Positions 15,213 to 36,041 of a DNA stretch of 40,068 bases are shown here, in pieces. How positions within the stretch are numbered: position 1 is the first letter of the stretch; each line of letters starts with the position of its first letter. The stretch is from an uncultured Anaerolineaceae bacterium (GTDB lineage Bacteria; Chloroflexota; Anaerolineae; Anaerolineales; Villigracilaceae): contig CAYOGW010000005.1 of assembly GCA_964403635.1 (NCBI GenBank), positions 6,289 to 46,356 on the forward strand, written 5' to 3'. Below the pieces are notes generated by a model, which saw nothing but the letters and a program-made list of their open reading frames with translations, searched no databases and had not been told where the DNA came from. The position numbers were made by a program, and so were the translations under genes.

Positions 15213-15226
15213 TTAATTCACACTTA

Positions 15227-15257
15227 AACAGCCCCTGTATGCAGGGGCTGTTTATTT
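15227..15257 (+). terminator. Rho-independent terminator after fhs
   Basis: Perfect 9-bp stem 'cagcccctg'/'caggggctg' with loop 'tatg', followed by 'tttattttt'. Confidence 0.75.
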
Positions 15258-15312: not shown

Positions 15313-15319
15313 TAATTAA

Positions 15320-16147: not shown

Positions 16148-16149
16148 AA

Positions 16150-17412: not shown

Positions 17413-18191
17413 TGAGTGAAATCCCTGAAAGAATTGTGCCCGGCTCGGCAGACTGGGAACACTACTATTACGAGCACAGCCAGCGCTACGAATTTTTTGC
17501 AGACCAATGCAAAGAAAAAACCGTGCTAGATGCGGCTTGTGGTGTGGGCTATGGTAGCCAACTATTAGCCAAAGCCGGAGCCAAACGTGTGCTGGGGGTA
17601 GATATCTCGGAGGAAGCCATTCAGCTAGCCAAAAGCCAATTTAACGGCGAGAAGGTTTCTTTTGAGCCAGCCGATGTCACTCATCTGCATGTGCCAAATG
17701 ATTCTTTTGATGTAGCCGTTAGTTTTGAAACCCTTGAACACATTGCCAAGCCCGAAGCGTTTGTAAAAGAATTAAAACGGGTGCTAAAACCAAACGGGCT
17801 ATTAATCATCAGCACACCCAACAGCCAGTTTGGCAACAAAAGCCAAACAGCCAACCCCTATCACCTTTCTGAATTAACGTTTAATCAATTTAAACTGTTA
17901 ATTAATCAATATTTTCAGATTGAACAAATTTACGCCCACAGCCATACACCCGCTTATTTAAGACACCTACAATTGCTGGAACATCTGAATCAATTGGATC
18001 GTATGGTTCGCTATAGCCCTTTTATTAAATTAGAAAATACCCTACGGCGTTGGTTAGGGCGTTGGCACAGCCAGTTACCGAACTTTCCGGCTGGGTTGGG
18101 TAATGTGCTGCCCGGCGATTTTGAAATTAAACCAATTAATGAAGGCTTACCAGAACACTTAACTTTTATTATTAAGGCTACCAAAAAATAA
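17412..18191 (+). CDS. Class I SAM-dependent methyltransferase
   Basis: Motif I 'VLDAACGVGYGS', an acidic 'VDIS' motif II, 'LKPNGLLIIST' post-I. Start overlaps the wzt stop by 1 nt. Confidence 0.8.
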   Translation: MSEIPERIVPGSADWEHYYYEHSQRYEFFADQCKEKTVLDAACGVGYGSQLLAKAGAKRVLGVDISEEAIQLAKSQFNGEKVSFEPADVTHLHVPNDSFDVAVSFETLEHIAKPEAFVKELKRVLKPNGLLIISTPNSQFGNKSQTANPYHLSELTFNQFKLLINQYFQIEQIYAHSHTPAYLRHLQLLEHLNQLDRMVRYSPFIKLENTLRRWLGRWHSQLPNFPAGLGNVLPGDFEIKPINEGLPEHLTFIIKATKK

Positions 18192-18192
18192 A

Positions 18193-19386: not shown

Positions 19387-20291
19387 CCTTAATCAGCGTT
19401 GTCATTTGCACCCATAACCGCGCGCCATATCTGCGCGCCGCCTTACAAAGCCTCAGCCAGCAAAGTATGTCAAAATCTCGCTTCGAGGTGCTGGTCATTA
19501 ACAACGCTTCCAGCGATTCTACGGTTCAAGTTGCTGAGAGCTTTCAGCAGTCATTAAATATAAAATTAATTAACGAACCCAACCTAGGGCTTTCTTTGGC
19601 TCGCAATCGCGGGTTAGAAACCAGTAAAAGCGAAATTATTTGTTATATGGATGACGACGCGATAGCCAGCCGAGATTACTTAAAAGCGATTCTTTCCGCT
19701 TTTCGGGCGGTCTCCCCCCAGCCTGCTCTCGTTGGTGGGAGAGTTTTGCTCCACTGGAACGGCCCGCTGCCCAACTGGCTGCCAGAAAAATATCTCAGCC
19801 TATACTCCATGCTCGATTATGGCGAACAAGCCAAATTTATTTCTGAAAGTGAGTACCTTGTTGGTGCAAACTTCGCTGCTCAAACTAGCTTTCTGCGCAG
19901 CATTGGCGGCTTTCAGCCAAGCCTAGGCCGTCAAGGCGGAAACCTGCTCTCGGGAGAAGAAACGCAGGTTCTGCTGAAGGCCCGTCAATTGGGGTTACCC
20001 ATCTATTATCAACCCAGCGCGTTGGTTTGGCATACGGTTACCCCAGGGCGGAAAACACGCGCCTGGCTACGAAAGCGGATTTTTTGGGATGGCGCTTCTC
20101 AACCCTTAATTAATTGGAAAGCCGAGCAACCAAAAAGTTATTACTTTAAACAAAGCCTCATCGACCTGCGCCGTATGATTCGCTTTTGCTGGGACCTGCT
20201 TCAAGGCTCTCCGGATGCTTTTTATCATTTGATTCAGCGCAGCGGACGGCTGCGCACCCATTTAATGCTGTGGCTGGGAATTAATCGTTAA
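19383..20291 (+). CDS. GT2-family glycosyltransferase (GT-A fold)
   Basis: 'ISVVICTHNRAPYLRAALQSLSQQ' and the 'YMDDDA' DxD motif. Start overlaps the previous stop (ATGA). Confidence 0.8.
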   Translation: MTLISVVICTHNRAPYLRAALQSLSQQSMSKSRFEVLVINNASSDSTVQVAESFQQSLNIKLINEPNLGLSLARNRGLETSKSEIICYMDDDAIASRDYLKAILSAFRAVSPQPALVGGRVLLHWNGPLPNWLPEKYLSLYSMLDYGEQAKFISESEYLVGANFAAQTSFLRSIGGFQPSLGRQGGNLLSGEETQVLLKARQLGLPIYYQPSALVWHTVTPGRKTRAWLRKRIFWDGASQPLINWKAEQPKSYYFKQSLIDLRRMIRFCWDLLQGSPDAFYHLIQRSGRLRTHLMLWLGINR

Positions 20292-20292
20292 G

Positions 20293-22947
20293 ATGCATAT
20301 TTGTTTTGTCTCTTTAGATTATCCTTCGGAAACTTCTGGCGGCGGCGTAGGAACAATTATGCAGCTGCTGGCAAAGGGATTTTCAGAAGACTGTCAACAA
20401 GTCAGTGTGATTGCGCTTCAACAAGAAGGTGAAGCCCCTTTCTCGCGGGATGGCGATGTGCTTATTTGGCGGTTTAAACCTTCTCACTTGCATTGGTATG
20501 TTTCAAAAATTCCATGGCTGGGAAAGAACTTAAGCCCCGTGGTGAGAGAATTAGAACGAAGCTGGGGCGCTTGGCGGCTGCTACAAAAAATTAATCAACA
20601 AAAAGAAGTTCATGCCGTTGAATTAATTGAAACCGGCGGGCTGTTTATTTCGCTTTTAGAAAGAGCCAAATTAATCGCGGTGCGCTTACACGGCGAACAA
20701 TATACTTTTCAAAAATATACACCTTTCCTTCAACTCAATTGGGGGTTAAAACTCACCCGTTTCATCCAACGTGTTGCCATCCGCAATGCCAATTTAAGAA
20801 TTTCCCCCAGCCACTGGCACGCCCAAGAAATTGCTGAAGAAACCGGTTTAAATAAGCAATCTATTCTGGTTTTATCGAATGCCATTGCTATTCCAACCAA
20901 GTTTCAGTTTTCAAATAATCACGCCAACCCTTTAATTCTTTTTGCTGGACGTTTAGAGCAATTAAAAGGTGTGCCATTGTTATTAGAAGCGTTTGCTTTA
21001 CTGCGAAAAGAAATGCCGCATGTTCGGCTTGCCTTAGCAGGAACATCTCACCCCAGCTTGCCAGAAAGCCAATTGAAAGAACTCATCCATCAATACCACC
21101 TTGAAAAATCAGTTCAACTGCTGGGATACATCCCCAACCAACAGTTAAAAGATTGGTTTAAAAAATCATCTGCGCTGGTGCTGCCTTCGTATTACGAAAG
21201 CTTTGGCTTAGCCGCCTTAGAAGCCATGGCGCACGGTTTACCAGTGGTTGCCTCTACAGCGGGCGCTTTACCCGAATTAATTAAAGAGAATGAAACTGGC
21301 TTGTTATTTAAAAGCGGAGACGCGCAAGCTTTGGCTGGTCAACTAAAAAAAATATTAAGTAGCCCCAAGCTACAAAAGCATTTGGCAAAAAATGCTCACC
21401 GCTTTAGTTTGCAACACTTTAATGCAAAAGAAAGCATTCTGCAAAACTTAACCCTTTATAAAAATAACTTAAAAATCCCGCCAAGCCCCAAACATGTGTT
21501 TTTTTCTCCACATTTGGATGATGTCATCCTTTCGTGCGGTGGAACAGTGAAAGAATTAAATAAAAACGCGCCTGTTGAAGTGGTGACAGTTTTTAGCGGT
21601 CAACCCAAAACCGCCGCAATAGGCACATTTGCAGAACACATTCATGCCAAGTGGAACTTGCCGCCGCAGACCGCAATTCTTTCTCGCCGCGATGAAGACC
21701 TGCTGGCTTTTTCAATTCTGTCTCCTACTATCCAAGTGACCCATTGGGGTTATCTAGAGGCGTTATACCGTCAGGAAAAAAACCACCAACCCCTGCATTC
21801 CGCTTATCAAAGCCTGCGTGGACCTCTACATCAGCAAGAAGAAGCCTTGATACCAACCCTTGTTTCACAAATCGAAAACCATTATTCAAAAGAAAATCAA
21901 CTTTATTTTCCAATGGGTTTGGGCACTCATGTAGACCACCGCATCTTATTTAAAACAGGCTACCAATTAAATCAACGGGGCTGGCCAGTGTTTTTTTATG
22001 AAGACTGGCCCTATGCAGAAAATTACGAACCTATTAGTAAGAAAAATTGGCAAGTTCTTGATCAACCAATTTCGCTTACCGAAAAAATTAAAGCGGCCGA
22101 AGCCTATGGATCTCAGCAAAAAGGGCTTGGGTATAGCCTAGCCGACCGATTAACAAACTATGCTCATCAAAACAAAAACCCATTGAAGACCAGTGAACGC
22201 ATTTGGCAGGCACAGCCCAACGATGAAGAAGTACCATTTAAACTCAAAAAGAAACAATGGCAGCTTGCCGATTTTTTAATTTTTTATAAAAGCCTTAACT
22301 GGAGAGATCTCTCCGAGCGGCTGCCGTTGGGCAGCGGTTACTGTTTAGATATTGGCAGTGGCAGCGGCAGAAACCAAGTAGCCATTGAAACCAAAGGTTA
22401 CACTTGGCTAGGGCTGGATTTAAACCGTCAGCGGAGGCAACACCTGCAAGCCAGCGCCAGCCGCCTGCCGGTAGCCAGCCAAAGCGTTGAGGCGGCTATT
22501 CTTTGGCAAGTGCTAGAATATCTCGAAAACCCTCAACAAGCGTTAGCAGAAGCCATCCGCACTTTAAAACCTGGCGGCGTGCTCTGCGGTAGCGTTTCAT
22601 TTTTAGAGCCGGTTCATGGACAAACCTATTATGGCATCAGCCATCACGCCATTCAAAAATTATTAATAGACCAACCTTTGCTGGATATTCAGATTCAGCC
22701 GGGCATTTCTGGCTTTACCCTGCTGATATGGACCTGGCTTAATCGTCTAGGCTTAAGCAGGCTAAGCGGATTGTGCCTGCCGTTATCGAGGTTTTTTTTG
22801 GTGCCCCCAGCCGCTTTGCTATTTTTGGTCAGTTGGCTGCAATGGCGGTTAGGCTGGGGCAGCGGGCATTTTATGGCGTGGCTGACAGAACGCGCCCCGC
22901 TGGAATTTGCAGGGCATATTCACTTTATTGCCAGAAAAGCAAGCTAA
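20293..22947 (+). CDS. Tri-domain enzyme: GT4 glycosyltransferase / LmbE(PIG-L)-family N-acetylglucosaminyl deacetylase / class I SAM methyltransferase, with C-terminal hydrophobic segment
   Basis: aa 1-390 GT4 ('ESFGLAALEAMAHGLPVVASTAGALPELI'). aa ~400-640 LmbE-like ('VFFSPHLDDVILSCGG' resembling the HPDDE zinc motif, and 'GLGTHVDHR' resembling HxDH). aa ~650-884 MTase ('CLDIGSGSGRN', 'LKPGGVLCGSV'), followed by a hydrophobic tail. Confidence 0.75.
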   Translation: MHICFVSLDYPSETSGGGVGTIMQLLAKGFSEDCQQVSVIALQQEGEAPFSRDGDVLIWRFKPSHLHWYVSKIPWLGKNLSPVVRELERSWGAWRLLQKINQQKEVHAVELIETGGLFISLLERAKLIAVRLHGEQYTFQKYTPFLQLNWGLKLTRFIQRVAIRNANLRISPSHWHAQEIAEETGLNKQSILVLSNAIAIPTKFQFSNNHANPLILFAGRLEQLKGVPLLLEAFALLRKEMPHVRLALAGTSHPSLPESQLKELIHQYHLEKSVQLLGYIPNQQLKDWFKKSSALVLPSYYESFGLAALEAMAHGLPVVASTAGALPELIKENETGLLFKSGDAQALAGQLKKILSSPKLQKHLAKNAHRFSLQHFNAKESILQNLTLYKNNLKIPPSPKHVFFSPHLDDVILSCGGTVKELNKNAPVEVVTVFSGQPKTAAIGTFAEHIHAKWNLPPQTAILSRRDEDLLAFSILSPTIQVTHWGYLEALYRQEKNHQPLHSAYQSLRGPLHQQEEALIPTLVSQIENHYSKENQLYFPMGLGTHVDHRILFKTGYQLNQRGWPVFFYEDWPYAENYEPISKKNWQVLDQPISLTEKIKAAEAYGSQQKGLGYSLADRLTNYAHQNKNPLKTSERIWQAQPNDEEVPFKLKKKQWQLADFLIFYKSLNWRDLSERLPLGSGYCLDIGSGSGRNQVAIETKGYTWLGLDLNRQRRQHLQASASRLPVASQSVEAAILWQVLEYLENPQQALAEAIRTLKPGGVLCGSVSFLEPVHGQTYYGISHHAIQKLLIDQPLLDIQIQPGISGFTLLIWTWLNRLGLSRLSGLCLPLSRFFLVPPAALLFLVSWLQWRLGWGSGHFMAWLTERAPLEFAGHIHFIARKAS

Positions 22948-22948
22948 C

Positions 22949-24121
22949 ATGCAGATACTCTTTTTAAGCATCGAATCACCCTATGACCCAAGCCGCGGCG
23001 GAGGGATTGCTTCTTATTTGCGGGCTATCATTCCCTATTTAATTAATGAGGGGCATCAGGTCACTTTAATTAGCCATGCCTATTTGCCGCCTAAAAACCA
23101 ACCAAAAAGCGTAAATTTTATTATTCAACATATTCAACTACCAAGCCTGCATTGGTATTTGGCAAAATTGGGCAGTCTTGTCAAACCATTGGTCTTGCCA
23201 TTAAGACAACTGGAGTGGTCGATTGGGTTTTACTGGACAGCGAGAACTGTTTTAAAACAACAGCCCAACTGTGTGATTGAATCCGCTGAAAGCGGGGCGC
23301 TTTTGTTCGGGCTGCTGCACCCCAAAAAACTGGTCATCCGTTTGCATGGCAGCGAATATATATTTAGAAAATTTTTAAACCAGCCATTAACTTTAGGAAC
23401 AAAAATTAATTTTTGGCTAGAAAAACAAGCTTTAAAACGAGCGGCGCTGGTAACCGCCCCCAGCCGTTTTCAGGCGGAATATGTTGCAAATCTGCTGGGC
23501 TGGCCTGCCGACAAAATTAAAGTAATTCCCAACCCATTAAGTGAAGATTATTTTCTACCGTTACCAGCGGCAAAAAAACACGCCCGCCCAATGATTTTAT
23601 TTGCTGGCCGCTTGGCAAGCATTAAAGGGGTTGACACCTTAATACAAGCCTTTCCACTGGTTCAAAAAAAGTATCCGCAAGCTTTGTTGGTGTTGGCAGG
23701 ACCCAACCAATTGCCCAATTTAAACTTAACACTAGATGCCAAAGTAGGTATAAACAAAGGCTTGCTTTGGTTGGGGCACCAAACACAAACTCAAATGCAA
23801 GTGTGGTATCAGCGGGCAAGTGTGTTGGCGATGCCTTCTTTTTATGAAACCTTTGGCTTAGCCGCCTTAGAAGCCATGGCTTGCGGCTTACCTGTGGTTG
23901 CCACCCATGTTGGCGGCATTGCTGAATTGATTAAAGACCAGCAAAACGGATTATTGGTTTCTGTTGGAGACGAAAAAGAGTTAGCAGATGGTATATGCAA
24001 AATATTGGAAAACCCTTCATTAAGGCAAACATTGGCTGAAAATGCTCAAAAAACTATCCAACAATATCACCCGCAGCGAGTAAGCTTGCAATTAATGAAA
24101 GCCTATCAGGGATTAATGTGA
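22949..24121 (+). CDS. GT4-family glycosyltransferase
   Basis: 'ETFGLAALEAMACGLPVVATHVGGIAELI' and 'ILFAGRLASIKGVDTLIQAF'. ATG 22949 lies 1 nt after the previous stop; ORF-track start 22907 rejected. Confidence 0.8.
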   Translation: MQILFLSIESPYDPSRGGGIASYLRAIIPYLINEGHQVTLISHAYLPPKNQPKSVNFIIQHIQLPSLHWYLAKLGSLVKPLVLPLRQLEWSIGFYWTARTVLKQQPNCVIESAESGALLFGLLHPKKLVIRLHGSEYIFRKFLNQPLTLGTKINFWLEKQALKRAALVTAPSRFQAEYVANLLGWPADKIKVIPNPLSEDYFLPLPAAKKHARPMILFAGRLASIKGVDTLIQAFPLVQKKYPQALLVLAGPNQLPNLNLTLDAKVGINKGLLWLGHQTQTQMQVWYQRASVLAMPSFYETFGLAALEAMACGLPVVATHVGGIAELIKDQQNGLLVSVGDEKELADGICKILENPSLRQTLAENAQKTIQQYHPQRVSLQLMKAYQGLM

Positions 24122-25281
24122 AAATACTGTTAATATCTGCTTCCTATTTGCCAGTAAAAGGGGGCCTACAAACGGCTACCCATGCGCTTGCCAAAGAATG
24201 GCAAAAAAACGGGCATACGGTGCGAGTCTTAACCAACCATTATCCGCGTGGATTAAAGAGCGCTGAAATGGTTGAGAATATTTCCGTTGAGCGGGAGTTG
24301 TTTTTATCTCCATCGATTGAATTAATTAAGCGTGGGCGCTGGGATATATGGCTTGCCAGCCTTTTTTATCAGCCACTTGTTTTATTGAAACTATTTATAT
24401 TAATGAAACAGTTTCAACCCGATGTGATTAATCTCCATTTCCCTTCATCCCAAGTGCCTTTTGTGCTTTGGTTAAAAAAACATTTTGCATTTAAATTAAT
24501 CGTTTCGTTGCACGGAACTGACATTGAACAATGGTTGAAAGAAGACAAACTAAGCCTTATAACTGAAAAACAAAATAATCCATCTTTTCTTCAGTTGCGG
24601 CGGGTTTTAAAAGAAGCCATGATTATTACCGCTTGTTCTGCCGATTTATTAAACAAAGCTTGTTTTATTGAACCTGAAATTAAAAATAAAAGCCATGTCG
24701 TGCATAATGGAGTGGATTGGAAGTTATTTCAAAGCAAAGAGCAACACTTGCACCCTGCCCCTTATCTTTTTGCTTTTGGGCGTTTAACCGCCGCCAAAGG
24801 GTTTGATCTCTTAATTAAAGCCTTTGACGGTTTAACCAGCCTGCAACCCAACCTAGATTTGCTTTTGGCAGGAGATGGTTCGGAAGCGGCAGCATTAAAA
24901 GAGCAAGTAAAAAAGCTGGGGCTGAGCCAGCGGGTCTTCTTTTTGGGCGCGCTTAACCCGCCAGAGATTGTGAAACTCTTAAATGGCTGTCTGTTTGCAG
25001 TCATTCCATCTCGAAAAGAACCATTTGGCATTGCCGCTTTAGAAGCCATGGCAGCTGGCAAAGCCGTTTTAGCAACAAAGGTTGGCGGATTAAATGAATT
25101 TGTACCAAAAAGAAACAGGCTAGTAAACCCCAATGCCGAATCACTGCTAGAAGGGATGCAACAAATGCTTCAACTCAATTTAACAGAAATCGGTGAAGTA
25201 AACCGGCGAGTGGCAAAAAAACTTTCGTGGGCGGCGGCGGCAGAAAAATTTATTGCGTTATTTAACGAAGCAGGAGTGTAA
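24118..25281 (+). CDS. GT4-family glycosyltransferase
   Basis: 'VKILLISASYLPVKGGLQTATHALAKEW' (GTG start) and 'EPFGIAALEAMAAGKAVLATKVGGLNEFV'. Confidence 0.8.
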   Translation: MKILLISASYLPVKGGLQTATHALAKEWQKNGHTVRVLTNHYPRGLKSAEMVENISVERELFLSPSIELIKRGRWDIWLASLFYQPLVLLKLFILMKQFQPDVINLHFPSSQVPFVLWLKKHFAFKLIVSLHGTDIEQWLKEDKLSLITEKQNNPSFLQLRRVLKEAMIITACSADLLNKACFIEPEIKNKSHVVHNGVDWKLFQSKEQHLHPAPYLFAFGRLTAAKGFDLLIKAFDGLTSLQPNLDLLLAGDGSEAAALKEQVKKLGLSQRVFFLGALNPPEIVKLLNGCLFAVIPSRKEPFGIAALEAMAAGKAVLATKVGGLNEFVPKRNRLVNPNAESLLEGMQQMLQLNLTEIGEVNRRVAKKLSWAAAAEKFIALFNEAGV

Positions 25282-25284
25282 ACG

Positions 25285-26724
25285 GTGGCATCTCAGAAAA
25301 AATCGTTAGGCGGTTTAAAACCCATTCCCAAAAGTGACCTTTCTTTACCCGCGCCATTTATTGTGCTTTTTTTAGTTTGGGGGGTTGCGTTTGCTTTATT
25401 GGCTTCCCCTTTGGTTGCCAGCATGAGCACTGTAGAAAAAATTATTGTATTAGCAATTCCCGCCGTTTTATCTGTTTTGGTAGTGTTGTTAGACATTGAG
25501 CATGGCATGACGTTTTGGGTATTAGGGTTAACGCTGCTGGTAACCCAAACTGGTTTTCAATTAGATATTTCTACTTTAAGAACCAGCGCTTTAGAATTAA
25601 TGACTATTTTGCTAATGGTCATTTTATTTTTTGACCGCACGGGTTTGTTTAAGCGCGTTTGGGCGTTGTTTCCGGGGCGTGTACCGGTTACTTTATTTGC
25701 GTTGTTTTCATTATTAATGTTATTTGTTGGGGTTATTCAAGGCGACAATTTATTACAAGCTCTTTCTCAATTAAAAGGATTTTTAATTTACCCGTTAATG
25801 GGAATTTTGCTGGCGGCGGGCATTCGGTCTACCGCTATGTTGCGCTGGGTCATTGGCATTGTTTTGGCTTGGTATGTTTTAGTGGCTGGCTGGGGCATTC
25901 TTCAATTTGTTCAGGGACAAAATATGTTGGCTCAAGACTATTTGTTCCGTGCATCTGGCGAATATGCCCCGATTAATATTTATGGTATTACTTTAATGGC
26001 TTGTGCATTATTGTTAGCGGGCATTGTCATCAGTACGCGCGGATTTCGCAGCCGTGTGCTGGGCAGTGGATTAATGATTTGGCTCATTATTGGCATGCTG
26101 GTTTCTGTTTCTCGCTCGGCTTTGCTTGGCTTGGTAATTGGCTTAATTGTCTTGTTTTTAGAAAGAAAAAGCCTTCGTATGATTATTGTTGGCTTGATAT
26201 TGGTGGGTCTCGCCGCTTGGGCGCTTTCAGACCTGCTTCCGCACGAAATCACCAACCGTTTATTTCAACTATCCGATTCATCCACTGTCCGGCGCGAATT
26301 CTACCTAGAATCAGGTTGGCAAGCTTTGCTCACTTTTTGGGCGTACGGCGGCGGCTGGGGCAATGGCTATTGGTATGTTTCTAACGCGGGCTTGGTGAAA
26401 TCTGGTTTTATGCCTTGGTATCACAATGATTTTTTAAACCTAGCGGTTCAAATTGGCGTTTTTGGCGCTTTTTTATATATCCTTTTTTGGGGGCGGGTCG
26501 TTCAAACCGGTTGGCTTTGGCTGCGCACCTACGCCACTAGTCAGCCAGAACTAGTTCCATTTGCGCGCGGCGCGCTGGCCGCGTTAATCGGCTTGCTGGT
26601 GGCCGCGGTTTTTGAACATGTTTTATGGCGCCCAGATATTGCCGGTTTGGTGGGTTGGATGCTCGGCATTTTAATTGCCATAATCACTTTGCAAAAACGC
26701 TTTGCTGAAGATACACCCGCATGA
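25285..26724 (+). CDS. Wzy_C / O-antigen ligase family polytopic membrane protein (polymerase, WaaL-like ligase or O-oligosaccharyltransferase)
   Basis: About 11 predicted TM helices. 'SVSRSALLGLVIGLIVLF' and 'WYHNDFLNLAVQIGVFGAF' resemble the Wzy_C loop/helix motifs with conserved R and H. GTG start with SD 'aggagt'. Confidence 0.65.
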   Translation: MASQKKSLGGLKPIPKSDLSLPAPFIVLFLVWGVAFALLASPLVASMSTVEKIIVLAIPAVLSVLVVLLDIEHGMTFWVLGLTLLVTQTGFQLDISTLRTSALELMTILLMVILFFDRTGLFKRVWALFPGRVPVTLFALFSLLMLFVGVIQGDNLLQALSQLKGFLIYPLMGILLAAGIRSTAMLRWVIGIVLAWYVLVAGWGILQFVQGQNMLAQDYLFRASGEYAPINIYGITLMACALLLAGIVISTRGFRSRVLGSGLMIWLIIGMLVSVSRSALLGLVIGLIVLFLERKSLRMIIVGLILVGLAAWALSDLLPHEITNRLFQLSDSSTVRREFYLESGWQALLTFWAYGGGWGNGYWYVSNAGLVKSGFMPWYHNDFLNLAVQIGVFGAFLYILFWGRVVQTGWLWLRTYATSQPELVPFARGALAALIGLLVAAVFEHVLWRPDIAGLVGWMLGILIAIITLQKRFAEDTPA

Positions 26725-27869
26725 AAAAAATTGTTTTTATCGATGAGACAGCAGAAATTGGCGGAGCAGAAATTAATTTATTGTTGCTTGCCGAACAATT
26801 AAACCAATTAAACTGGGATATAGAAGTCTGGCTGCCTAAGCTTGGACCTTTAGTGCAAAAACTAGAAGCGCGCTCTATCCCCGTTAAAATCATCCCTGCT
26901 TTTCGGTGGTTTTCTGTTTCATTTTATCTATTCGGCAAAAAAATAATTAACCCAGCCGCGCTGATTGTTAATTTGATCAGCGGTTTAATTTGGAGTTATC
27001 GATTACGAACAGCTTTAAAAGAAACCCGCCCTCAGGTTGTACAAACGGTCAGTTTATGGGGGCACGCTTGGGGTGGGTTCGCCGCCCGTTCCTTCAATAT
27101 CCCGCATGTGGCTCATTTTCAAGATATCGTTTCGAAAGGGCTGTTTCAATTTTTGGTTAATCAATGGGGCAATTCCATCCCCACTAAAATTATTTGCATC
27201 TCTAAACCGGTAGCCAAGCAATTTAATTTAAATGCATCAAAGAAATTAATCACACTACCCAATATCGTTGATATTAATAAATTTACCCCAGCAACAAACA
27301 AGCCAAAAAACAATATTTTAACCATTGGCACAGTGGCGCGCATCACCCGCTGGAAAGGGCAAGACCAAGCCTTAAAAGTAGCCGCCCTGCTTAAGCAAGA
27401 GAACATTCCATTTCAATGGTGGTTTATTGGCAGCGCGGCGCTCGGCTCAGAAGACTTTTTTGAAGAATTAAAGGATTTCATTAATAAGCATCAATTAACC
27501 GAAGTGGTTACACTGGCGGGCTGGCACGAAAACATGCCCGCCTTTTACCAAAGCCTCGATCTGCTGGTTCATTTGCCAACTGAAACAGAGCCTTTTGGGC
27601 TGGTATTAGCGGAAGGTTTAGCCAGTGGTCTTTCGGTGATTGCCACCGAAGGCGGCGGCGCAGATGAATTGGTGCGGGCGGGCGGCGGTTTTTTAGTTTC
27701 CAAAACCAACCCCGTTGTAGAAGCCCGCAATAGAGTGGTTGACCTTTGGCAAAACCCATCCCTCTTAAGCCAAAGCAAGCAAGAAGCCCGCCGTATAGCA
27801 GAAAATCTATTTAGCCTTTCGGTTTACATTTTTAATTGGCAAACCATTTATAAGGAGTTAGGCGCATGA
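26721..27869 (+). CDS. GT4-family glycosyltransferase
   Basis: 'MKKIVFIDETAEIGGAEINLLLLAEQL' and 'EPFGLVLAEGLASGLSVIATEGGGADELV'. Confidence 0.8.
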   Translation: MKKIVFIDETAEIGGAEINLLLLAEQLNQLNWDIEVWLPKLGPLVQKLEARSIPVKIIPAFRWFSVSFYLFGKKIINPAALIVNLISGLIWSYRLRTALKETRPQVVQTVSLWGHAWGGFAARSFNIPHVAHFQDIVSKGLFQFLVNQWGNSIPTKIICISKPVAKQFNLNASKKLITLPNIVDINKFTPATNKPKNNILTIGTVARITRWKGQDQALKVAALLKQENIPFQWWFIGSAALGSEDFFEELKDFINKHQLTEVVTLAGWHENMPAFYQSLDLLVHLPTETEPFGLVLAEGLASGLSVIATEGGGADELVRAGGGFLVSKTNPVVEARNRVVDLWQNPSLLSQSKQEARRIAENLFSLSVYIFNWQTIYKELGA

Positions 27870-28681
27870 GCAGACAAAAAATATCGGTCATTGTGCCAAC
27901 CGGCAACCGCATGGATACCCTAGAAGATTGTTTAAACAGTGTTCATTGGGCAGATGAAATACTGGTCATCGATTCGTATTCAACAGACGGTTCTTTTAAA
28001 TTGGCAGAAAAACTTGCCACCAAAGTGATAAAACACGAATATGGCTTTTCTGCTTTGCAAAAAAACTGGGCTATTCCACAAGCCGCTCACCAATGGGTTT
28101 TATTGCTGGATACCGATGAACGTGTGACCGAAACCCTTAAACAAGAAATTTTGACCATTCTAGAAAAAAACCCGCCGCTGGCTGGCTATAAAATTGCCCG
28201 TGTTAATTATTTGTTTGGTAAAAAAGTAAGCCACGCGGGCTACTTTCCAGATTATCAAGTGCGGTTGTTTCGGCGAGATTTAGCCAAGTATGAGCTTCGC
28301 CAAGTGCACGCCCATATGATAGTAGAAGGCGACTGCGGCGCCTTAAATGCTCCGCTGGTTCATTATGCTCACCGCAGCTTAAACCAAACTTTGCAAAATT
28401 TATTAATCCAAATGACCACCTGGGAAGCCGAAGAACGGGCAAAAAAGCCCGTTCGTTTCTTGGCTTTCCATTTAATTTTTAGACCCATCGCCGCCTTTTT
28501 GTTGCGTTATTTTTGGCAAGGCGGCTGGCGCAGCGGATTTCACGGTTTCGTTGTGAGCTTACTGTGGGCGATGTATGTTTGTATTACCTACCTAAAAATT
28601 TGGGAAAGCCAATTAAATTTAGCGCCTAATTGGTGGCAAGCCCACTGGCAGCAGCCGCAGGTTCAACATGACGGCGGATAA
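27866..28681 (+). CDS. GT2-family glycosyltransferase
   Basis: 'ISVIVPTGNRMDTLEDCLNSV' and the 'LLDTDE' DxD motif. Hydrophobic C-terminal region. Confidence 0.75.
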   Translation: MSRQKISVIVPTGNRMDTLEDCLNSVHWADEILVIDSYSTDGSFKLAEKLATKVIKHEYGFSALQKNWAIPQAAHQWVLLLDTDERVTETLKQEILTILEKNPPLAGYKIARVNYLFGKKVSHAGYFPDYQVRLFRRDLAKYELRQVHAHMIVEGDCGALNAPLVHYAHRSLNQTLQNLLIQMTTWEAEERAKKPVRFLAFHLIFRPIAAFLLRYFWQGGWRSGFHGFVVSLLWAMYVCITYLKIWESQLNLAPNWWQAHWQQPQVQHDGG

Positions 28682-29666
28682 ACCTCGTTTATTATTCCTT
28701 CACAACGGGCAAGAACGATTTGTACAACAGGATTTACAGTTGCTGCAAAGCGATTTTCAAGTCACCGATTTTTACATGCCTAACAAATTCCCACAAAACG
28801 GGTTTAAACTCTGGCAGGCTATTCAGGCTGCCGATGTGATTTTTATTTGGTTCGCCAGTTGGAATGCCTTTTGGGCTATCCAAATCGCAAATTTATTCAA
28901 TAAAAAATCGGTCTTGGTAGTTGGCGGTTACGACACAGCCAACCTGCCAATTGCCAACTATGGCAGCCAGCGCGGCGGGCTGACAAAATGGATGAGCCAA
29001 AACACCATGAAAACAGCCGATTTAATTTTGCCATTTTCAGAATATAGCCGTAGCGAAGCCCACACCCAAGCTGAGATTAATTTACAAAAAATGCATACCG
29101 TTTACCTAGGCGTGCCCGACCTTTTTGCTGATTCGCAAAACTTCTCTAAAAACGGTTCGGTATTAACCGTTGGCAATGTAGAATGGGCCAACCTACAACG
29201 CAAAGGGTTAGAACCATTTGTACAAACAGCCAGCCGATTACCAGAAACCAATTTCATCTTAATTGGCGCGTGGCGAGACGATTCGATTAATTATTTAAAA
29301 AAAATTGCCACCCCCAATGTTACGTTTACTGGGAAATTAAGCGATACTGAATTAATAAATTACTATCGCGAAGCCAGCGTTTATGTGCAAGCCTCGCTGC
29401 ACGAGGGCTTTGGCTTAAGCGTTGCAGAAGCCATGCTGGCAGAATGTGTACCCGTGGTAACCAAAGTTGGCTCGCTGCCAGAAGTAGTTGGCGAATGCGG
29501 AATTTATGCAGACTCACCCGAGCCTGCCCACCTCGCCACAAGCATTCAACAAGCTTTTAACGCTCAACCCGAACAAGGGAAAAAAGCCCGTCAAAGGATA
29601 TTAATTAAATTCCCACCAGAAAACCGTCAAAAAGCGCTCAGTGATTTCATTAAGGGGCTGCTATGA
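28668..29666 (+). CDS. GT4-family glycosyltransferase (short N-domain)
   Basis: 'EGFGLSVAEAMLAECVPVVTKVGSLPEVV' and 'FILIGAWRDDS'. Overlaps the previous gene by 14 nt. Confidence 0.7.
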   Translation: MTADKPRLLFLHNGQERFVQQDLQLLQSDFQVTDFYMPNKFPQNGFKLWQAIQAADVIFIWFASWNAFWAIQIANLFNKKSVLVVGGYDTANLPIANYGSQRGGLTKWMSQNTMKTADLILPFSEYSRSEAHTQAEINLQKMHTVYLGVPDLFADSQNFSKNGSVLTVGNVEWANLQRKGLEPFVQTASRLPETNFILIGAWRDDSINYLKKIATPNVTFTGKLSDTELINYYREASVYVQASLHEGFGLSVAEAMLAECVPVVTKVGSLPEVVGECGIYADSPEPAHLATSIQQAFNAQPEQGKKARQRILIKFPPENRQKALSDFIKGLL

Positions 29667-30715
29667 AAACCAAACAACCGTTAGTCAGCATTGTCATCCC
29701 CATCCGCAATGGAGAGAAACATATCGGCGAAACCCTGCGAGCCATTTGCAGCCAAGATTACCCGCTTAAGCGGATGGAAGTTTTGGTTGTAGACGGCCTG
29801 TCTACCGATGGAACACGCATAGTGGTAGAACAAACTGCCAGCCAAAATCCGAACTTATTAATTAAATTTTTAATTAATCAAAAACAAATAACCCCCTGTG
29901 CATTAAATATTGGCATTTTACAATCGCATGGCGATTTCATCCTGCGGGTTGATAGCCGCACCCAAATTGCGGTGGATTATGTTTCGGCATGTGTGGCGGC
30001 TCATTTGCGCAGCGGCGCAGAAAATGTGGGCGGGCCGCTCACTTCACAAGGGTTAACCTTGTTCGGAAAAGCCTCGGCGTTGGCAACCAGTGACCGTTTT
30101 GGAGTTGGCAATGCACTCCACCATTATGCAAAAGAAGATGTGTGGGCAGATACGGTTTACATGGGTGCTTGGCCGCGCACCGTTTTTGAAAAAATAGGGC
30201 TTTTTGACGAGGAACAAGTGCGCAACCAAGACGATGAATTTAATTATCGTCTGCAAGCCGCGGGCGGGCGTATTTTGGTTTCACCCCTCATTAAATTAAT
30301 GTACACCGTTCGAACCGATTCTCCTGCTCAACTGTGGCAGCAATTTTATGAATATGGCTTTTGGAAAGTGCGCGTTTGGCAAAAACACCCAAGCCAAATT
30401 CGCCCCCGCCAATTCATTCCTCCGCTATTTGTTTTTTGTCTTTTCATCGGCTTAATCATTAGCCTTCTATATCCAATAGCTTGGTTTTTATGGCTGCCCG
30501 TTTTCTCTCTTTACCTTATTCTTAATTTATTTTCATCCATTGCCATTGCACACCAAACCAACTGGAACGTACTGCCAGTATTACCCATTGCCTTTGCCAT
30601 GCTGCACTTTGGCTATGGCTCAGGGCTGCTGTGGGGGTTAATTAAATTTGCAAACCACTGGCAAGACCGCCAAGGAATTATTCCCAGCCTCCCCAAAAAA
30701 GAAGCCCATGAATAA
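29663..30715 (+). CDS. GT2 polyprenyl-phosphate glycosyltransferase, GtrB/ArnC-like, with C-terminal TM helices
   Basis: 'VSIVIPIRNGEKHI...VVDGLSTDGT' and 'DDEFNYRL' fit a GT-A domain. Two C-terminal TM helices ('FIPPLFVFCLFIGLIISLLYPIAWFLWLPVFSLYLILNLFS') are characteristic of GtrB-type enzymes. Confidence 0.7.
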   Translation: MKTKQPLVSIVIPIRNGEKHIGETLRAICSQDYPLKRMEVLVVDGLSTDGTRIVVEQTASQNPNLLIKFLINQKQITPCALNIGILQSHGDFILRVDSRTQIAVDYVSACVAAHLRSGAENVGGPLTSQGLTLFGKASALATSDRFGVGNALHHYAKEDVWADTVYMGAWPRTVFEKIGLFDEEQVRNQDDEFNYRLQAAGGRILVSPLIKLMYTVRTDSPAQLWQQFYEYGFWKVRVWQKHPSQIRPRQFIPPLFVFCLFIGLIISLLYPIAWFLWLPVFSLYLILNLFSSIAIAHQTNWNVLPVLPIAFAMLHFGYGSGLLWGLIKFANHWQDRQGIIPSLPKKEAHE

Positions 30716-31412
30716 CGACTTCGAACGACTACAAAAAGAATACCTAGCGCGAGAAAATCGCTTTGCAAACGACTCTCGATATTCACCTTTTAATCAAGAA
30801 TATTTGTTTACAAAGAGCCAACTTAATCGCCATCTCTTAAACATGCTCTCCAAACACGGGGTTCAAAACCTCGGCACTTCTAAAATTTTAGAAGTAGGCT
30901 GCGGAACCGGCGGCGTTTTAGTAGATTATTTAAGCTATGGAGCATCAGCCAATCACATTCACGGGGTAGATGTACTGCCCCACCGGCTGACCCAAGCCCG
31001 CAGCCGCCTTCCGTTTTTACAAATATCCCAAGCGGATGGTATCGCCCTGCCATTCGCTGCCGAACAGTTTGATATTGTCTGCCAATACACCATGTTTTCA
31101 TCCATTTTAGACGAATCCATTAAACAAAAAATTGCCCAAGAAATGCTCAGAGTGCTTAAAACAAACGGCATCTTAATTTGGTACGACTTCTGGTGGAACC
31201 CAACCAACCCAGCCACAAAAGGCATTCGCCAATTAGAAATTAAACTGTTATTTGCACCATTTAAAACATCCATCCAGCGGGTTACCTTAGCGCCGCCCAT
31301 CGCAAGGAAAACCGTGCCATTCTCTTGGGGCTTCTCGCTCATGCTAGAAAACCTGAAAATCTTCAACAGCCATCTTTTAGTGGTTATCCGCAAGGATTCT
31401 GCAATTGATTAG
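30706..31412 (+). CDS. Class I SAM-dependent methyltransferase
   Basis: 'ILEVGCGTGGVLVDYL' motif I and 'LKTNGILIWYDF' post-I. Start 30706 (MNNDFERLQ) overlaps the previous stop by 10 nt; the ORF track's GTG 30648 lies deeper inside the upstream gene. Confidence 0.7.
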
Positions 31413-31482
31413 CCCGATGTTGCAATGTTCTTATACGCATTGAATTGGCATAATGGGGCTACTCTATAAAGGAAAGACGCTT

Positions 31483-32994
31483 ATGAAAAGTTTACCCATT
31501 ACACGCCCAATTATCCAAATTGAAGAAAACGCCGGCCTGCAAAAATGGATTAATGTTGTCCTTAAACGCAGTTTCGATATCTTTGCTTCTCTGTTTGGGC
31601 TTTTGCTTCTTGCTCCATTTTTTGTATTAATTGGCTTCTTTATAAAACGCGAATCTCCCGGCCCGGTCTTCTTTAAAGGGCCTCGCATGGGCAAAAACCA
31701 ATCTATTTTTTACATTTGGAAATTCCGCACCATGTACGAAAGAGTAGAAAGTTATGAAGGGCCTTCCATCACAGCCAAAGGAGATGCCCGTATCACACCC
31801 CTTGGTCACTGGTTACGATTAACAAAAATAAACGAATTACCTCAATTAATTAATGTTTTGTTTGGGGAAATGAGTTTGGTTGGGCCTCGCCCTGAAGTGC
31901 CAGAAATTGCCCAAGACTGGCCCAAAGACGCCAAGCGAGAAGTGCTTTCCGTTCAACCTGGCATTACCAGCCCCGCTTCTATTCTCTATCGAGATGAAGA
32001 AGCTATGTTAATTGGCAATAACAGCATGGATGATTACCTGCGAAAAATATTGCCAGATAAACTTCGCCTCGACCAGCTTTATGTTCGCAATCACACCTTC
32101 TTATCCGATTTAGATGTCATTTTGATGACATTAATCGTGCTGCTGCCAACTGTTCGCAACACACCCATTCCTGAAGCGCGCTTATACGTTGGTCCACTTT
32201 CTATCTTTACCCACCGCATCTGGAATTGGTTTGTCATTGACAGCTTAATTGCTTTTACTGCCATCGCCGCCGCAGGTATTTTGTGGCGCACAGGCGGCCC
32301 GCTAGAACTAGGCGTTGATGTAGCCCTATTGGTGGGGTTAATCATGGCATTAATATTCAGCCTATCAAATTATCTCTTAGGCCTGCATCGTGTCGCTTGG
32401 AGATACGCCCCACCGGCTCTGGCGATTGACTTGGCATTTTCTGGCTTCTTAGCCACCCTAAGCATTGTTGCAGTTAATTTCTCGTGGCCTGGGCAGCAAC
32501 TGCCACTAGGAATGCTTTTATTTTCTGGCTTTTTCACCTTTATCGGTTTTACAGCCGCCCGCTACCGCGAGCGCCTTCTTATGGGCTTGGCCTCCCGCTG
32601 GGTATACCACCGTAACCGCTTTAGCCCGATTGGCGAACGTGTCTTAATTGTTGGCGCCGGTGAATATGGTCAAATGGCCGCTTGGCTTATGCAAAAAAGC
32701 GCCTTCGCTTCGGCTTATGTAATTTTAGGCATGGTCGACGATGACATTCACAAACAAGGCATGTTAATTGACGGTTACCCGGTAGTTTGCGGCTCACGAG
32801 AATTAGCCCGCATGGTTAAAGACAAAGATGTAGGTTTAATTTTATTTGCCATCTCAAACATTAATCCGCGAGAACGAGAGCGAATTTTAAACATCTGCCG
32901 CAAAACCAACGCAAGGGTTGTCATCATGCCCGATATTTTGCAAATTTTACACACCCAATTAGCACAAGAGACTCCTTACCAAACCTATGCCTAA
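31483..32994 (+). CDS. Polyprenyl-phosphate phosphoglycosyl transferase (bacterial sugar transferase family) with atypical order: catalytic domain, then 4 TM, then Rossmann-like domain
   Basis: N-terminal 'KRSFDIFASLFGLLLLAPFFVLIGFFIKRESPGPVFFKGPRMG...FYIWKFRTM...NELPQLINVLFGEMSLVGPRPEVPE' is the PGT catalytic core. Four TM helices then follow, then 'LIVGAGEYGQMAAWLM...ILGMVDDD', which resembles the cytoplasmic Rossmann-like domain of WbaP/PglF-type proteins. SD 'ggaaag' before ATG 31483. Confidence 0.75.
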   Translation: MKSLPITRPIIQIEENAGLQKWINVVLKRSFDIFASLFGLLLLAPFFVLIGFFIKRESPGPVFFKGPRMGKNQSIFYIWKFRTMYERVESYEGPSITAKGDARITPLGHWLRLTKINELPQLINVLFGEMSLVGPRPEVPEIAQDWPKDAKREVLSVQPGITSPASILYRDEEAMLIGNNSMDDYLRKILPDKLRLDQLYVRNHTFLSDLDVILMTLIVLLPTVRNTPIPEARLYVGPLSIFTHRIWNWFVIDSLIAFTAIAAAGILWRTGGPLELGVDVALLVGLIMALIFSLSNYLLGLHRVAWRYAPPALAIDLAFSGFLATLSIVAVNFSWPGQQLPLGMLLFSGFFTFIGFTAARYRERLLMGLASRWVYHRNRFSPIGERVLIVGAGEYGQMAAWLMQKSAFASAYVILGMVDDDIHKQGMLIDGYPVVCGSRELARMVKDKDVGLILFAISNINPRERERILNICRKTNARVVIMPDILQILHTQLAQETPYQTYA

Positions 32995-36036: not shown

Positions 36037-36041
36037 CCCGT

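What the first reader, a model, noticed from the sequence alone, without database searches (positions are those of the whole stretch)
25285..26724. Wzy_C-family membrane protein in an ABC-transporter context: candidate ligase or O-oligosaccharyltransferase rather than polymerase
Wzy_C proteins are polymerases (Wzy), lipid-A-core ligases (WaaL) or protein O-oligosaccharyltransferases (PglL, PilO, WsaB). With an ABC exporter and Wzt-type cap control the polymer is finished in the cytoplasm, so a Wzy-type polymerase is not needed. The protein is therefore more likely to transfer the completed lipid-linked glycan to an acceptor. With an LCP ligase also present, one of the two may glycosylate a surface protein (S-layer-type O-glycosylation) while the other attaches polymer to peptidoglycan. 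The giant surface protein encoded 900 bp downstream (37636-40068) is a conceivable glycosylation target.
Basis: inference. Interest (0 to 1): 0.55.

Follow-up and report, generated by a model that had tools for sequence, protein, structure and literature searches.

The report
WaaL-like glycan ligase, Chloroflexota ABC-export cassette
The gene encodes a membrane enzyme of the O-antigen-ligase (WaaL) type, carried with an ABC polysaccharide exporter in a 16-kb sugar-coat cassette of an Anaerolineales (Chloroflexota) bacterium. It most likely attaches the finished, exported sugar chain to a still unknown surface acceptor rather than polymerising it.

Summary

The gene sits in a conserved 16-kb cassette: Wzm, a Wzt with a carbohydrate-binding tail, methyltransferases, nine glycosyltransferases and Wzy_C. 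This cassette recurs in other Chloroflexota.

The two closest relatives lack the whole cassette. They keep the adjacent PGT-DegT-tyrosine kinase-phosphatase-LCP genes, so the Wzy_C gene is inherited with the ABC exporter, not with the kinase or the LCP.

No Wzx flippase occurs in the window or in the nine related loci that extend beyond the Wzy_C gene and its immediate neighbours.

Sequence and fold cannot exclude a polymerase. The family profile scores S. meliloti ExoQ, a Wzy_C polymerase that also keeps the His, about as well as it scores WaaL.

The acceptor (protein, glycolipid or another glycan) is unresolved. The proposed target protein lies 10.9 kb away, not 900 bp, on the opposite strand. 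It carries a sortase domain and is not conserved beside the cassette.

Verdict: new member of a known kind, moderate interest.

The parts
15225..15254 (+). Intrinsic-terminator-like hairpin after the formate-THF ligase gene. It marks the upstream edge of the accessory cassette. A promoter-like site follows at 15258-15285.
   Evidence: 13-bp stem, T tract; sequence. DNA homology to relatives L013 and L015 stops at 15212.
15320..16147 (+). Wzm, the ABC-2 permease of the glycan exporter.
   Evidence: Pfam ABC2_membrane E 5e-23. Weak NCBIfam hits to galactan Wzm and KpsM. Orthologues at 61-69% identity in L004 and L009.
16150..17412 (+). Wzt, the ATPase with a C-terminal carbohydrate-binding-type domain.
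   Evidence: ABC_tran E 1e-21; Wzt_C 28.7 bits (cut-off 30.4). phmmer to full-length Aquifex Wzt 8DKU/7K2T gives E 1e-67 over residues 48-373.
17412..18191 (+). SAM methyltransferase MT1, directly after wzt. Candidate chain-end capping enzyme (inference).
   Evidence: Methyltransf_11 E 2e-26. Conserved next to wzt in L004 and L010, and fused to a GT4 in L017.
18193..25281 (+). Five cytoplasmic glycosyltransferase genes: GT4 18193-19386; GT2 19383-20291; GT4 + PIG-L deacetylase + methyltransferase 20293-22947; GT4 22907-24121; GT4 24118-25281.
   Evidence: Pfam. Synteny with L004, L010 and L017.
25285..26724 (+). The finding: a Wzy_C / WaaL-fold membrane transferase. Putative active-site residues are R277, R337 and H380. 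A family-specific outer-loop motif is RLxQLSDSSTxxR...GWGWG...PWYHNDYLNL.
26721..31412 (+). Conserved downstream half of the cassette: GT4 26721-27869; GT2 27866-28681; GT4 28668-29666; GT2 with C-terminal TM helices 29663-30715; methyltransferase MT2 30648-31412.
   Evidence: Pfam. The GT4 and GT2 directly downstream of Wzy_C follow it in every locus that extends that far, the third gene (GT4) in all but the three short contigs, and the upstream GT4 in most; the TM-GT2 and MT2 are found in only some loci. Identities 36-63%.
31453..32994 (+). Polyprenyl-phosphate sugar-1-phosphate transferase (Bac_transf). It makes the Und-PP-linked primer. It lies outside the cassette and is present in relatives that lack the cassette.
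   Evidence: Bac_transf E 2e-53. 79-81% identical orthologues in L013 and L015.
32987..34150 (+). DegT-type sugar aminotransferase.
   Evidence: E 7e-116.
34159..36545 (+). Wzz/GNVR + BY-kinase (34159-36036) and LMW phosphotyrosine phosphatase (36042-36545).
   Evidence: Present without the cassette in L015.
36558..37571 (+). LCP (LytR-CpsA-Psr) glycopolymer phosphotransferase.
   Evidence: E 7e-14. L015 orthologue is 52% identical.
37636..40068 (-). Ig-like-repeat protein with a C-terminal sortase domain, N-terminus beyond the window. There is no evidence of any link.
   Evidence: Sortase E 2e-21, Big_3_5, He_PIG. Reading frame open to position 40068. Absent beside the LCP gene in L015 and absent from related cassettes.

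Best explanation
The protein is a WaaL-type (Wzy_C, GT-C fold) ligase that performs the last membrane step of an ABC-transporter-dependent glycan pathway.

Proposed sequence of events:
1. The Bac_transf enzyme primes undecaprenyl phosphate.
2. The nine cytoplasmic glycosyltransferases, the PIG-L deacetylase and the methyltransferases build and probably cap the whole chain on Und-PP.
3. Wzm/Wzt exports it, with the Wzt C-terminal domain reading the chain end.
4. On the outer face, R277 and R337 hold the diphosphate and H380 activates an acceptor hydroxyl, so the finished chain is moved en bloc from Und-PP to an acceptor other than Und-PP.

Shown here: gene, family, fold, conserved outer-face Arg/Arg/His, the cassette, co-inheritance with Wzm/Wzt, and the absence of Wzx. 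Inferred: the donor, the capping, the catalytic roles and the ligase activity itself.

The acceptor is unresolved. My ranking is a surface protein Ser/Thr/Tyr (about 0.25), because the parts list matches WsaB/WsfB of Bacillales S-layer glycosylation. Next comes a membrane glycolipid as for TacL (about 0.2), then another glycan (about 0.1). The neighbouring LCP would separately attach Und-PP-linked polymer to peptidoglycan.
For: Family and fold:
- Wzy_C above threshold.
- AF2 model with pLDDT 83.9 and pTM 0.86.

Active site:
- In an alignment of 115 relatives plus E. coli WaaL, R277, R337 and H380 fall on EcWaaL R215, R288 and H338. They are conserved in 116/116, 114/116 and 113/116 sequences.
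- The profile alignment to Cupriavidus WaaL pairs the same three residues with its TRG, VRL and HAHND motifs, at 94.4 bits.
- These are the Und-PP-binding arginines and the acceptor-activating histidine according to PMC10920833.

Context:
- The same cassette, from Wzm/Wzt through the GTs, Wzy_C, further GTs and a methyltransferase, occurs in L004, L009 and L017 and partly in L010.
- The closest relatives, L013 and L015, lack window 15213-31388 but keep PGT-DegT-BYK-PTP-LCP.
- No MOP flippase is present anywhere examined. The other multi-TM proteins in related loci are weak, mostly sub-threshold GT-C matches (PMT_2 or ALG6-like), apart from two that match no Pfam family.
- Wzt homology runs into the CBD of Aquifex Wzt.

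Precedents:
- WsaB/WsfB in ABC-dependent S-layer glycan clusters with a WbaP-type PGT and a methyl cap (PMC2943079).
- TacL working alongside LCP enzymes on one precursor (PMC5727136).
- Near relatives include a Wzy_C-heptosyltransferase fusion, that is, an LPS-type ligase.
Against: No biochemical data exist for any member of this clade.

Sequence similarity does not separate ligases from polymerases:
- S. meliloti ExoQ is a Wzy_C protein assigned by genetics as the succinoglycan polymerase (the assignment is from my own knowledge of the exo literature). It keeps the His and the second Arg.
- It scores 87.7 bits with the broad family profile, as high as WaaL.
- It is the only reference that the tight family profile detects at all (12 bits).

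A Wzz-domain BY-kinase, the usual partner of Wzy, lies in the same gene string and also follows the cassette in L004.

Wzt_C is slightly below the Pfam threshold.

A Wzx could be encoded elsewhere in the genome; only 46 kb of this MAG contig exists.

For the protein-acceptor variant, there is no PglL_A or Wzy_C_2 domain, no TPR in the window, and no conserved acceptor gene nearby.
Confidence: 0.55

Rival explanations
1. It is a Wzy-type polymerase. Und-PP-linked oligosaccharide blocks reach the outer face, via Wzm/Wzt acting as a flippase or via a Wzx encoded elsewhere. The Wzy_C protein joins them under chain-length control by the Wzz/BY-kinase and phosphatase, and the LCP enzyme attaches the polymer to peptidoglycan. 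This would mirror streptococcal cpsA-E plus a variable region.
For: - PCP/BY-kinase, LMW phosphatase, LCP and a WbaP-type PGT lie directly downstream, and the kinase also follows the cassette in L004.
- The conserved PGT-to-LCP block with a variable block beside it resembles cps loci.
- The family profile scores the polymerase ExoQ at 87.7 bits, and ExoQ keeps the His.
Against: - No Wzx is present in the window or in the nine related loci that extend beyond the Wzy_C gene and its immediate neighbours.
- The kinase, phosphatase and LCP persist in close relatives that lack the Wzy_C gene, so they are not tied to it.
- The exporter is a CBD-bearing Wzt with an adjacent methyltransferase, the signature of chains finished and capped in the cytoplasm. 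A capped end would not be a polymerase acceptor (inference).
- Nine glycosyltransferases are many for one repeat unit.
- All three WaaL residues are present, whereas ExoQ lacks the first Arg (Ser in its place).
- There is no hit to NCBIfam polymerase models.
Confidence: 0.25
2. It is a TacL/WaaL-like lipid ligase. It couples the exported chain to a membrane glycolipid, giving a lipoglycan, while the LCP enzyme puts the same precursor on peptidoglycan.
For: - The protein is compact (479 aa) with no extra soluble domain, like WaaL and TacL.
- It coexists with an LCP gene, as in the TacL precedent (PMC5727136).
- It is translationally coupled to conserved GT4 genes, and a membrane-embedded GT2 lies in the cassette; these could build an acceptor.
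- A GT2-Wzy_C fusion among relatives recalls the WadA ligase-GT fusion.
Against: - No glycolipid-anchor synthase is identified; the only such hit is 41 bits against a 460-bit cut-off.
- No lipoglycan has been reported for Chloroflexota, to my knowledge.
- tacL itself is not embedded in an ABC-exporter cluster.
Confidence: 0.2
3. One reading: the enzyme O-glycosylates the neighbouring large surface protein (37636-40068).
For: Only proximity to the LCP end of the gene string and the presence of Ser/Thr-rich Ig-like repeats.
Against: - The gene is 10.9 kb from the Wzy_C gene, on the opposite strand, outside the cassette, and carries a sortase domain.
- It is absent beside the LCP gene in L015 and absent from every related cassette locus.
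Confidence: 0.04

Closest known systems
WaaL O-antigen ligase (CAZy GT121; Cupriavidus metallidurans WaaL, PDB 7TPG/7TPJ; E. coli K-12 WaaL)
   Different: About 13-15% identity and two extra N-terminal helices. The host is an Anaerolineales bacterium; the phylum lacks LPS genes according to the literature, so the acceptor cannot be lipid A-core. The gene lies inside the glycan cassette, not in a core-oligosaccharide cluster.
WsaB / WsfB, predicted S-layer O-oligosaccharyltransferases of Geobacillus stearothermophilus and Paenibacillus alvei
   Same: A Wzy_C protein encoded in one cluster with Wzm/Wzt, a WbaP-type PGT, multidomain GT-methyltransferase enzymes and a methyl-capped chain, in a monoderm host (PMC2943079). 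This is the best match of parts.
   Different: No S-layer or acceptor gene lies nearby. There is no TPR domain or TPR neighbour in the window (one related locus, L004, has a TPR gene between wzm and wzt). A direct sequence comparison was not possible because the reference sequences are not in the collections.
TacL (RafX), lipoteichoic acid ligase of Streptococcus pneumoniae
   Same: A Wzy_C protein of similar size in a monoderm. It competes with LCP enzymes for one Und-PP-linked precursor (PMC5727136).
   Different: The teichoic acid precursor is made by a Wzx/Wzy-type route, and tacL is not part of an ABC-exporter cassette. No anchor glycolipid gene is identified here.
ExoQ, succinoglycan polymerase of Sinorhizobium meliloti (Wzy_C family)
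   Same: Wzy_C domain (E 2.5e-19), and the His and second Arg are conserved. It scores 87.7 bits with the broad family profile.
   Different: exoQ sits with an OPX gene (Poly_export) and a Bac_transf PGT and, from my knowledge of the exo cluster rather than anything seen here, with the Wzx-like exoT and the BY-kinase exoP. ExoQ lacks the first Arg. The target sits with Wzm/Wzt and no Wzx.
PglL-type O-oligosaccharyltransferases (solved chain 9RMK_A, 'Oligosaccharyltransferase')
   Same: Shared Arg/Arg/His motifs in the profile alignment.
   Different: A weaker match than WaaL (51.1 versus 94.4 bits). There is no PglL_A or Wzy_C_2 domain and no C-terminal extension.

Membership tests
Pfam Wzy_C / CAZy GT121 O-antigen-ligase-like | HMM match above the curated threshold | tested here: met
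   PF04932 scores 43.7 bits against 31.7, E 3e-11. All 15 close homologues carry it.
Pfam Wzy_C / CAZy GT121 O-antigen-ligase-like | WaaL (GT-C, subclass B) membrane fold | tested here: met
Pfam Wzy_C / CAZy GT121 O-antigen-ligase-like | Two Und-PP-binding Arg plus an acceptor-activating His on the outer face | tested here: met
   R277/R337/H380 align to EcWaaL R215/R288/H338 and to the CmWaaL motifs. The positive-inside pattern places them outside. Caveat: ExoQ, a polymerase, also has the His.
WaaL sensu stricto (LPS ligase) | Lipid A-core acceptor; host makes LPS | not testable with these tools
   The host is Anaerolineales by FTHFS identity of 81-83%. The phylum is reported to lack LPS and BAM genes (PMC13319060). 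The whole genome is not available.
Wzy polymerase of a Wzx/Wzy-dependent pathway | Wzx (MOP) flippase encoded with it | tested here: not met
   There are no MOP Pfam hits. The only proteins of 280 aa or more with six or more predicted TM segments in the window are Wzy_C and the PGT. In related loci the others are weak, mostly sub-threshold GT-C matches, apart from two with no Pfam match.
Wzy polymerase of a Wzx/Wzy-dependent pathway | PCP (Wzz-domain) co-polymerase functionally linked | tested here: inconclusive
   A Wzz/GNVR/BY-kinase is present. However, it is retained with the LCP and PGT in L015, which lacks the Wzy_C cassette.
Wzy polymerase of a Wzx/Wzy-dependent pathway | Asp/Glu instead of His at the catalytic position (inverting BP-Pol families of clan GT-C1, PMC10920833) | tested here: not met
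   His in 113/116 relatives. The rule is not universal, because ExoQ has His.
PglL/PilO-type O-oligosaccharyltransferase | PglL_A and/or Wzy_C_2 accessory domains | tested here: not met
   Only Wzy_C is reported at E <= 0.01. The profile match to solved OTase 9RMK is weaker than the match to WaaL.
WsaB/WsfB-type S-layer O-OTase system | Wzy_C with Wzm/Wzt, a WbaP-type PGT and a capping methyltransferase in one cluster | tested here: met
   description of the system in PMC2943079.
WsaB/WsfB-type S-layer O-OTase system | TPR domain or TPR partner; glycoprotein acceptor | tested here: inconclusive
   No TPR in the window. A TPR gene lies between wzm and wzt in L004 only. No acceptor gene is conserved nearby.
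TacL-type lipoteichoic acid ligase | Glycolipid acceptor; same precursor also used by LCP enzymes | not testable with these tools
   An LCP gene is present. No anchor synthase is identifiable.
CBD-type Wzm/Wzt O-polysaccharide exporter (context of the finding) | C-terminal carbohydrate-binding domain on Wzt | tested here: inconclusive
   Wzt_C scores 28.7 bits, below the 30.4 cut-off. The alignment to full-length Aquifex Wzt extends to residue 373 of 420. The C-terminal 170 aa alone find nothing in the PDB.

The most novel reading that the evidence does not exclude
Chloroflexota, which lack LPS, may use this WaaL-type ligase to couple an ABC-exported, methyl-capped polysaccharide to a membrane glycolipid. 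That would make an LPS-like or LTA-like lipoglycan that helps form the unexplained outer layers of their 'neoderm' envelopes. The 16-kb cassette would be a transferable unit conferring it.
Probability: 0.12. Interest if true: 0.7.

Novelty: new member of a known kind. Interest (0 to 1): 0.35.

Why it matters
The envelope of Chloroflexota is poorly understood. It has layered, sometimes diderm-like walls without LPS or BAM genes.

This cassette is a conserved, self-contained unit of about 14 genes that is present or absent between close Anaerolineales relatives. It probably specifies a major methylated surface glycoconjugate. Knowing whether its WaaL-like enzyme loads proteins, lipids or another glycan would say what that outer material is.

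A protein-directed enzyme from a new phylum could also serve as a glycoengineering tool.

The case also shows that Wzy_C annotation, fold and catalytic residues cannot by themselves tell a ligase from a polymerase. Here the gene context carries the argument.

Tried and rejected
- PDB sequence searches with the single protein and with the tight 15-member profile found nothing. Only a 115-member profile reached WaaL and an O-OTase.
- hhalign against single E. coli WaaL and WbbH sequences was not significant. WbbH belongs to a different clan (GT131), so it is uninformative.
- The afdb50 fold library was unavailable.
- tblastn against plasmids gave no match.
- NCBIfam gave no equivalog-level name for the target or for any cassette glycosyltransferase. 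The weak IctB C-terminal hit (25 bits against a 366-bit cut-off) was dismissed.
- I first took 'His means ligase, Asp/Glu means polymerase' (PMC10920833) as a discriminator. I then tested it on S. meliloti ExoQ, recovered from pSymB and identified by its neighbours. ExoQ has the His, so I downgraded this argument.
- I considered the BY-kinase to be evidence for a polymerase. I rejected it as a specific link after finding relatives with the kinase, phosphatase and LCP but no cassette.
- I looked for a conserved acceptor protein or S-layer gene beside related cassettes and found none.
- The 'Methylothermaceae' label on homologue P0005 sits on a 2.9-kb contig and is probably a binning error.
- Internal alternative-frame ORFs (25659-25976 and 26001-26384) have no support.
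Full report
**Observation.**
The ORF at 25285-26724 (+) exists exactly as reported: GTG start, 479 aa. An AGGAG ribosome-binding site lies 8 nt upstream. The start is 3 nt after the stop of the preceding GT4 gene, and the stop overlaps the start of the next GT4 gene by 4 nt. The product matches Pfam Wzy_C above the curated threshold (43.7 against 31.7 bits, E 3e-11, residues 263-399) and nothing else at E <= 0.01.

**Surroundings.**
The gene lies in a same-strand, tightly packed string from 15320 to 37571. In order:
- Wzm
- Wzt
- a methyltransferase
- GT4
- GT2
- a GT4 + PIG-L + methyltransferase fusion
- GT4
- GT4
- Wzy_C
- GT4
- GT2
- GT4
- a GT2 with C-terminal TM helices
- a methyltransferase
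- a Bac_transf phosphoglycosyl transferase
- a DegT aminotransferase
- a Wzz/GNVR/BY-kinase
- an LMW phosphotyrosine phosphatase
- an LCP transferase

Wzt's C-terminal Wzt_C match is just under threshold (28.7 against 30.4 bits). However, the protein aligns to full-length Aquifex Wzt (8DKU/7K2T) through residue 373, that is, into the carbohydrate-binding domain.

The 'giant surface protein' is 10.9 kb downstream of the Wzy_C gene, not 900 bp. It is on the minus strand, open to the window end, and has Ig-like repeats and a C-terminal sortase domain.

**Host.**
The window's formate-THF ligase is 81-83% identical to proteins named from Anaerolineales and Villigracilaceae MAGs. All four genome hits for the Wzy_C family are Chloroflexota. 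The literature describes the phylum as lacking LPS and BAM genes and as having unexplained multilayered envelopes (PMC13319060).

**The protein.**
- Only 15 homologues (37-51% identity) turned up in the word-indexed search.
- An exhaustive profile search found 54 representatives at E < 1e-30 and about 13,000 at E < 1e-3. This is therefore a small, distinct clade within the very large Wzy_C superfamily.
- Family-invariant residues include R277 (SVSR), R325, Q328, D331, S333, R337, GWGWG, and W378-H380-N381-D382 (PWYHNDYLNL).
- The AlphaFold model is confident (pLDDT 83.9, pTM 0.86).
- In an alignment of 115 full-length relatives plus E. coli K-12 WaaL, R277, R337 and H380 fall on WaaL R215, R288 and H338. 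They are conserved in 116/116, 114/116 and 113/116 sequences.
- A 115-member profile aligns the same three residues with the corresponding motifs of CmWaaL (94.4 bits) and of a solved O-oligosaccharyltransferase, 9RMK (51.1 bits).
- According to PMC10920833, these are the two Und-PP-binding arginines and the acceptor-activating histidine.
- The distribution of Lys and Arg places them on the outer face.

The enzyme therefore very probably uses an Und-PP-linked glycan donor outside the membrane. This fits the Bac_transf primer enzyme encoded nearby.

**Can sequence tell ligase from polymerase?**
PMC10920833 reports that inverting Wzy families of the same clan carry Asp or Glu where ligases carry His. 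I tested this on a polymerase I could retrieve. The pSymB ORF at 1,170,226-1,171,533 is a 435-aa Wzy_C protein. It lies between an epimerase gene on one side and, on the other, a Poly_export gene, a Bac_transf gene, a pyruvyl transferase gene and a GT2 gene. From my knowledge of the exo gene order, this is ExoQ.

ExoQ keeps the His and the second Arg and has Ser in place of the first Arg. It scores 87.7 bits with the broad family profile, against 43.1 for E. coli WaaL. It is also the only reference the tight profile detects at all.

Sequence, fold and catalytic residues therefore place the protein among WaaL-like Und-PP-glycan transferases but do not decide between ligase and polymerase.

**Context decides more.**
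1. The GT4 and GT2 genes directly downstream of Wzy_C follow it in every related locus that extends that far, the next GT4 in all but the three short contigs, and the upstream GT4 in most; the TM-GT2 and the methyltransferase were found in only some loci. Identities are 36-63%. The full cassette including Wzm/Wzt is seen in L004, L009 and L017, and in L010 up to the locus edge.
2. The two closest relatives (FTHFS 88-89% identical, same upstream genes) go from FTHFS directly to PGT-DegT-BY-kinase-phosphatase-LCP. DNA homology to the window jumps from 15212 to about 31390. Window 15213-31388 is therefore a 16.2-kb accessory cassette, bounded upstream by a strong terminator and a promoter-like site. 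The Wzy_C gene is inherited with the ABC exporter, whereas the kinase, phosphatase, LCP and PGT exist without it.
3. No MOP/Wzx flippase occurs in the window or in the nine related loci that extend beyond the Wzy_C gene and its immediate neighbours (most with 10-kb flanks). Most of the other multi-TM proteins there give weak, mostly sub-threshold GT-C matches (PMT_2 or ALG6-like), and two match no Pfam family.
4. A CBD-bearing Wzt with an adjacent, co-conserved methyltransferase is the signature of chains completed and capped in the cytoplasm. A capped chain is a poor substrate for Wzy-type block polymerisation (inference).

**Conclusion on mechanism.**
The best-supported reading (about 0.55) is a terminal ligase that moves the finished, exported chain from Und-PP to a non-Und-PP acceptor. 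The polymerase reading stays at about 0.25. It rests on the neighbouring Wzz/BY-kinase, on the cps-like layout of a conserved block next to a variable block, and on the similarity to ExoQ.

**Which acceptor?**
This is unresolved.
- The closest match of parts is the S-layer glycosylation system of Geobacillus and Paenibacillus: Wzm/Wzt, a WbaP-type PGT, a multidomain GT-methyltransferase, a methyl cap, and the Wzy_C O-OTase WsaB/WsfB (PMC2943079).
- TacL shows a second monoderm solution: a Wzy_C ligase puts the precursor on a glycolipid while LCP enzymes put it on peptidoglycan (PMC5727136).
- Against a PglL-type enzyme: no PglL_A or Wzy_C_2 domain, and a weaker profile match to the solved O-OTase than to WaaL.

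**Novelty and interest.**
This is a divergent clade of a known enzyme family, so far seen only in Chloroflexota, in a known kind of pathway. I rate it a new member of a known kind, with interest of about 0.35. The most novel reading not excluded is a WaaL-made lipoglycan in an LPS-less phylum (probability about 0.12).

Noticed in passing
window 15213-31388; L013, L015: The whole Wzm-to-methyltransferase block (16.2 kb, 14 genes) is missing from the two closest relatives. In L015 it is replaced by about 150 bp of spacer, and in L013 by a galactokinase gene. No repeats, tRNA or integrase were looked for at the edges.
   Followed up: partly
window 31453-32994 (+): The phosphoglycosyl transferase has its Bac_transf catalytic domain at the N-terminus (38-231) and the CoA_binding_3/PglD_N-like domain at the C-terminus (316-493). 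This is the reverse of the usual WbaP/CpsE order. The L013 and L015 orthologues have the same order.
   Followed up: no
window 37636-40068 (-): A large protein of Ig-like repeats (Big_3_5, He_PIG) ends in a sortase domain with a TLITC motif. Sortase as the C-terminal domain of a long extracellular repeat protein is unusual. The N-terminus lies beyond the window.
   Followed up: no
window 20293-22947 (+); L010, L017: An 884-aa fusion of GT4 glycosyltransferase, PIG-L de-N-acetylase and methyltransferase with hydrophobic C-terminal segments. It is conserved in two related cassettes and resembles the multidomain chain-building and capping enzymes of ABC-dependent pathways.
   Followed up: partly
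L001 5989-7830 and 14592-16667; L006 4233-5396 and 8679-9878; L007 6631-7665; L010 2948-4792 and 15990-18077: Related cassettes carry multi-TM genes with weak, mostly sub-threshold matches to GT-C glycosyltransferases (PMT_2 or ALG6-like). In L001 and L010 one lies beside the TM-anchored GT2 orthologue. This hints at extracytoplasmic side-chain glycosylation from polyprenyl-P-sugars. The window's cassette has none.
   Followed up: partly
P0044 and P0128 (relatives): P0044 is a GT2-Wzy_C fusion (785 aa), and P0128 is a Wzy_C-GT9 heptosyltransferase fusion (723 aa). They recall the WadA ligase-GT fusion and hint that these ligases work closely with the enzyme that completes their acceptor.
   Followed up: partly
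L004 762-1601: A TPR protein is encoded between wzm and wzt in one related cassette. This is reminiscent of the TPR protein WsaA next to the O-OTase WsaB. It is absent from the window.
   Followed up: no
window 10415-11377 (-): A membrane protein with Pro/Thr repeats (TPTITLTPTITLTPTITETP...) and a Pro/Thr/Ser-rich tail, a composition typical of O-glycosylated linkers. It is conserved (72%) in L013, which lacks the cassette.
   Followed up: no
L019 10227-11534 (-) (S. meliloti pSymB 1,170,226-1,171,533): The ExoQ succinoglycan polymerase keeps the WaaL-type His and second Arg but has Ser at the first Arg position. The published rule of His for ligases and Asp/Glu for polymerases therefore does not hold across the Wzy_C family.
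   Followed up: yes
P0005 / HEB77037.1: One family member is labelled 'Methylothermaceae bacterium' but sits on a 2.9-kb contig. All other taxonomically placed members are Chloroflexota, so this is probably a binning error.
   Followed up: no
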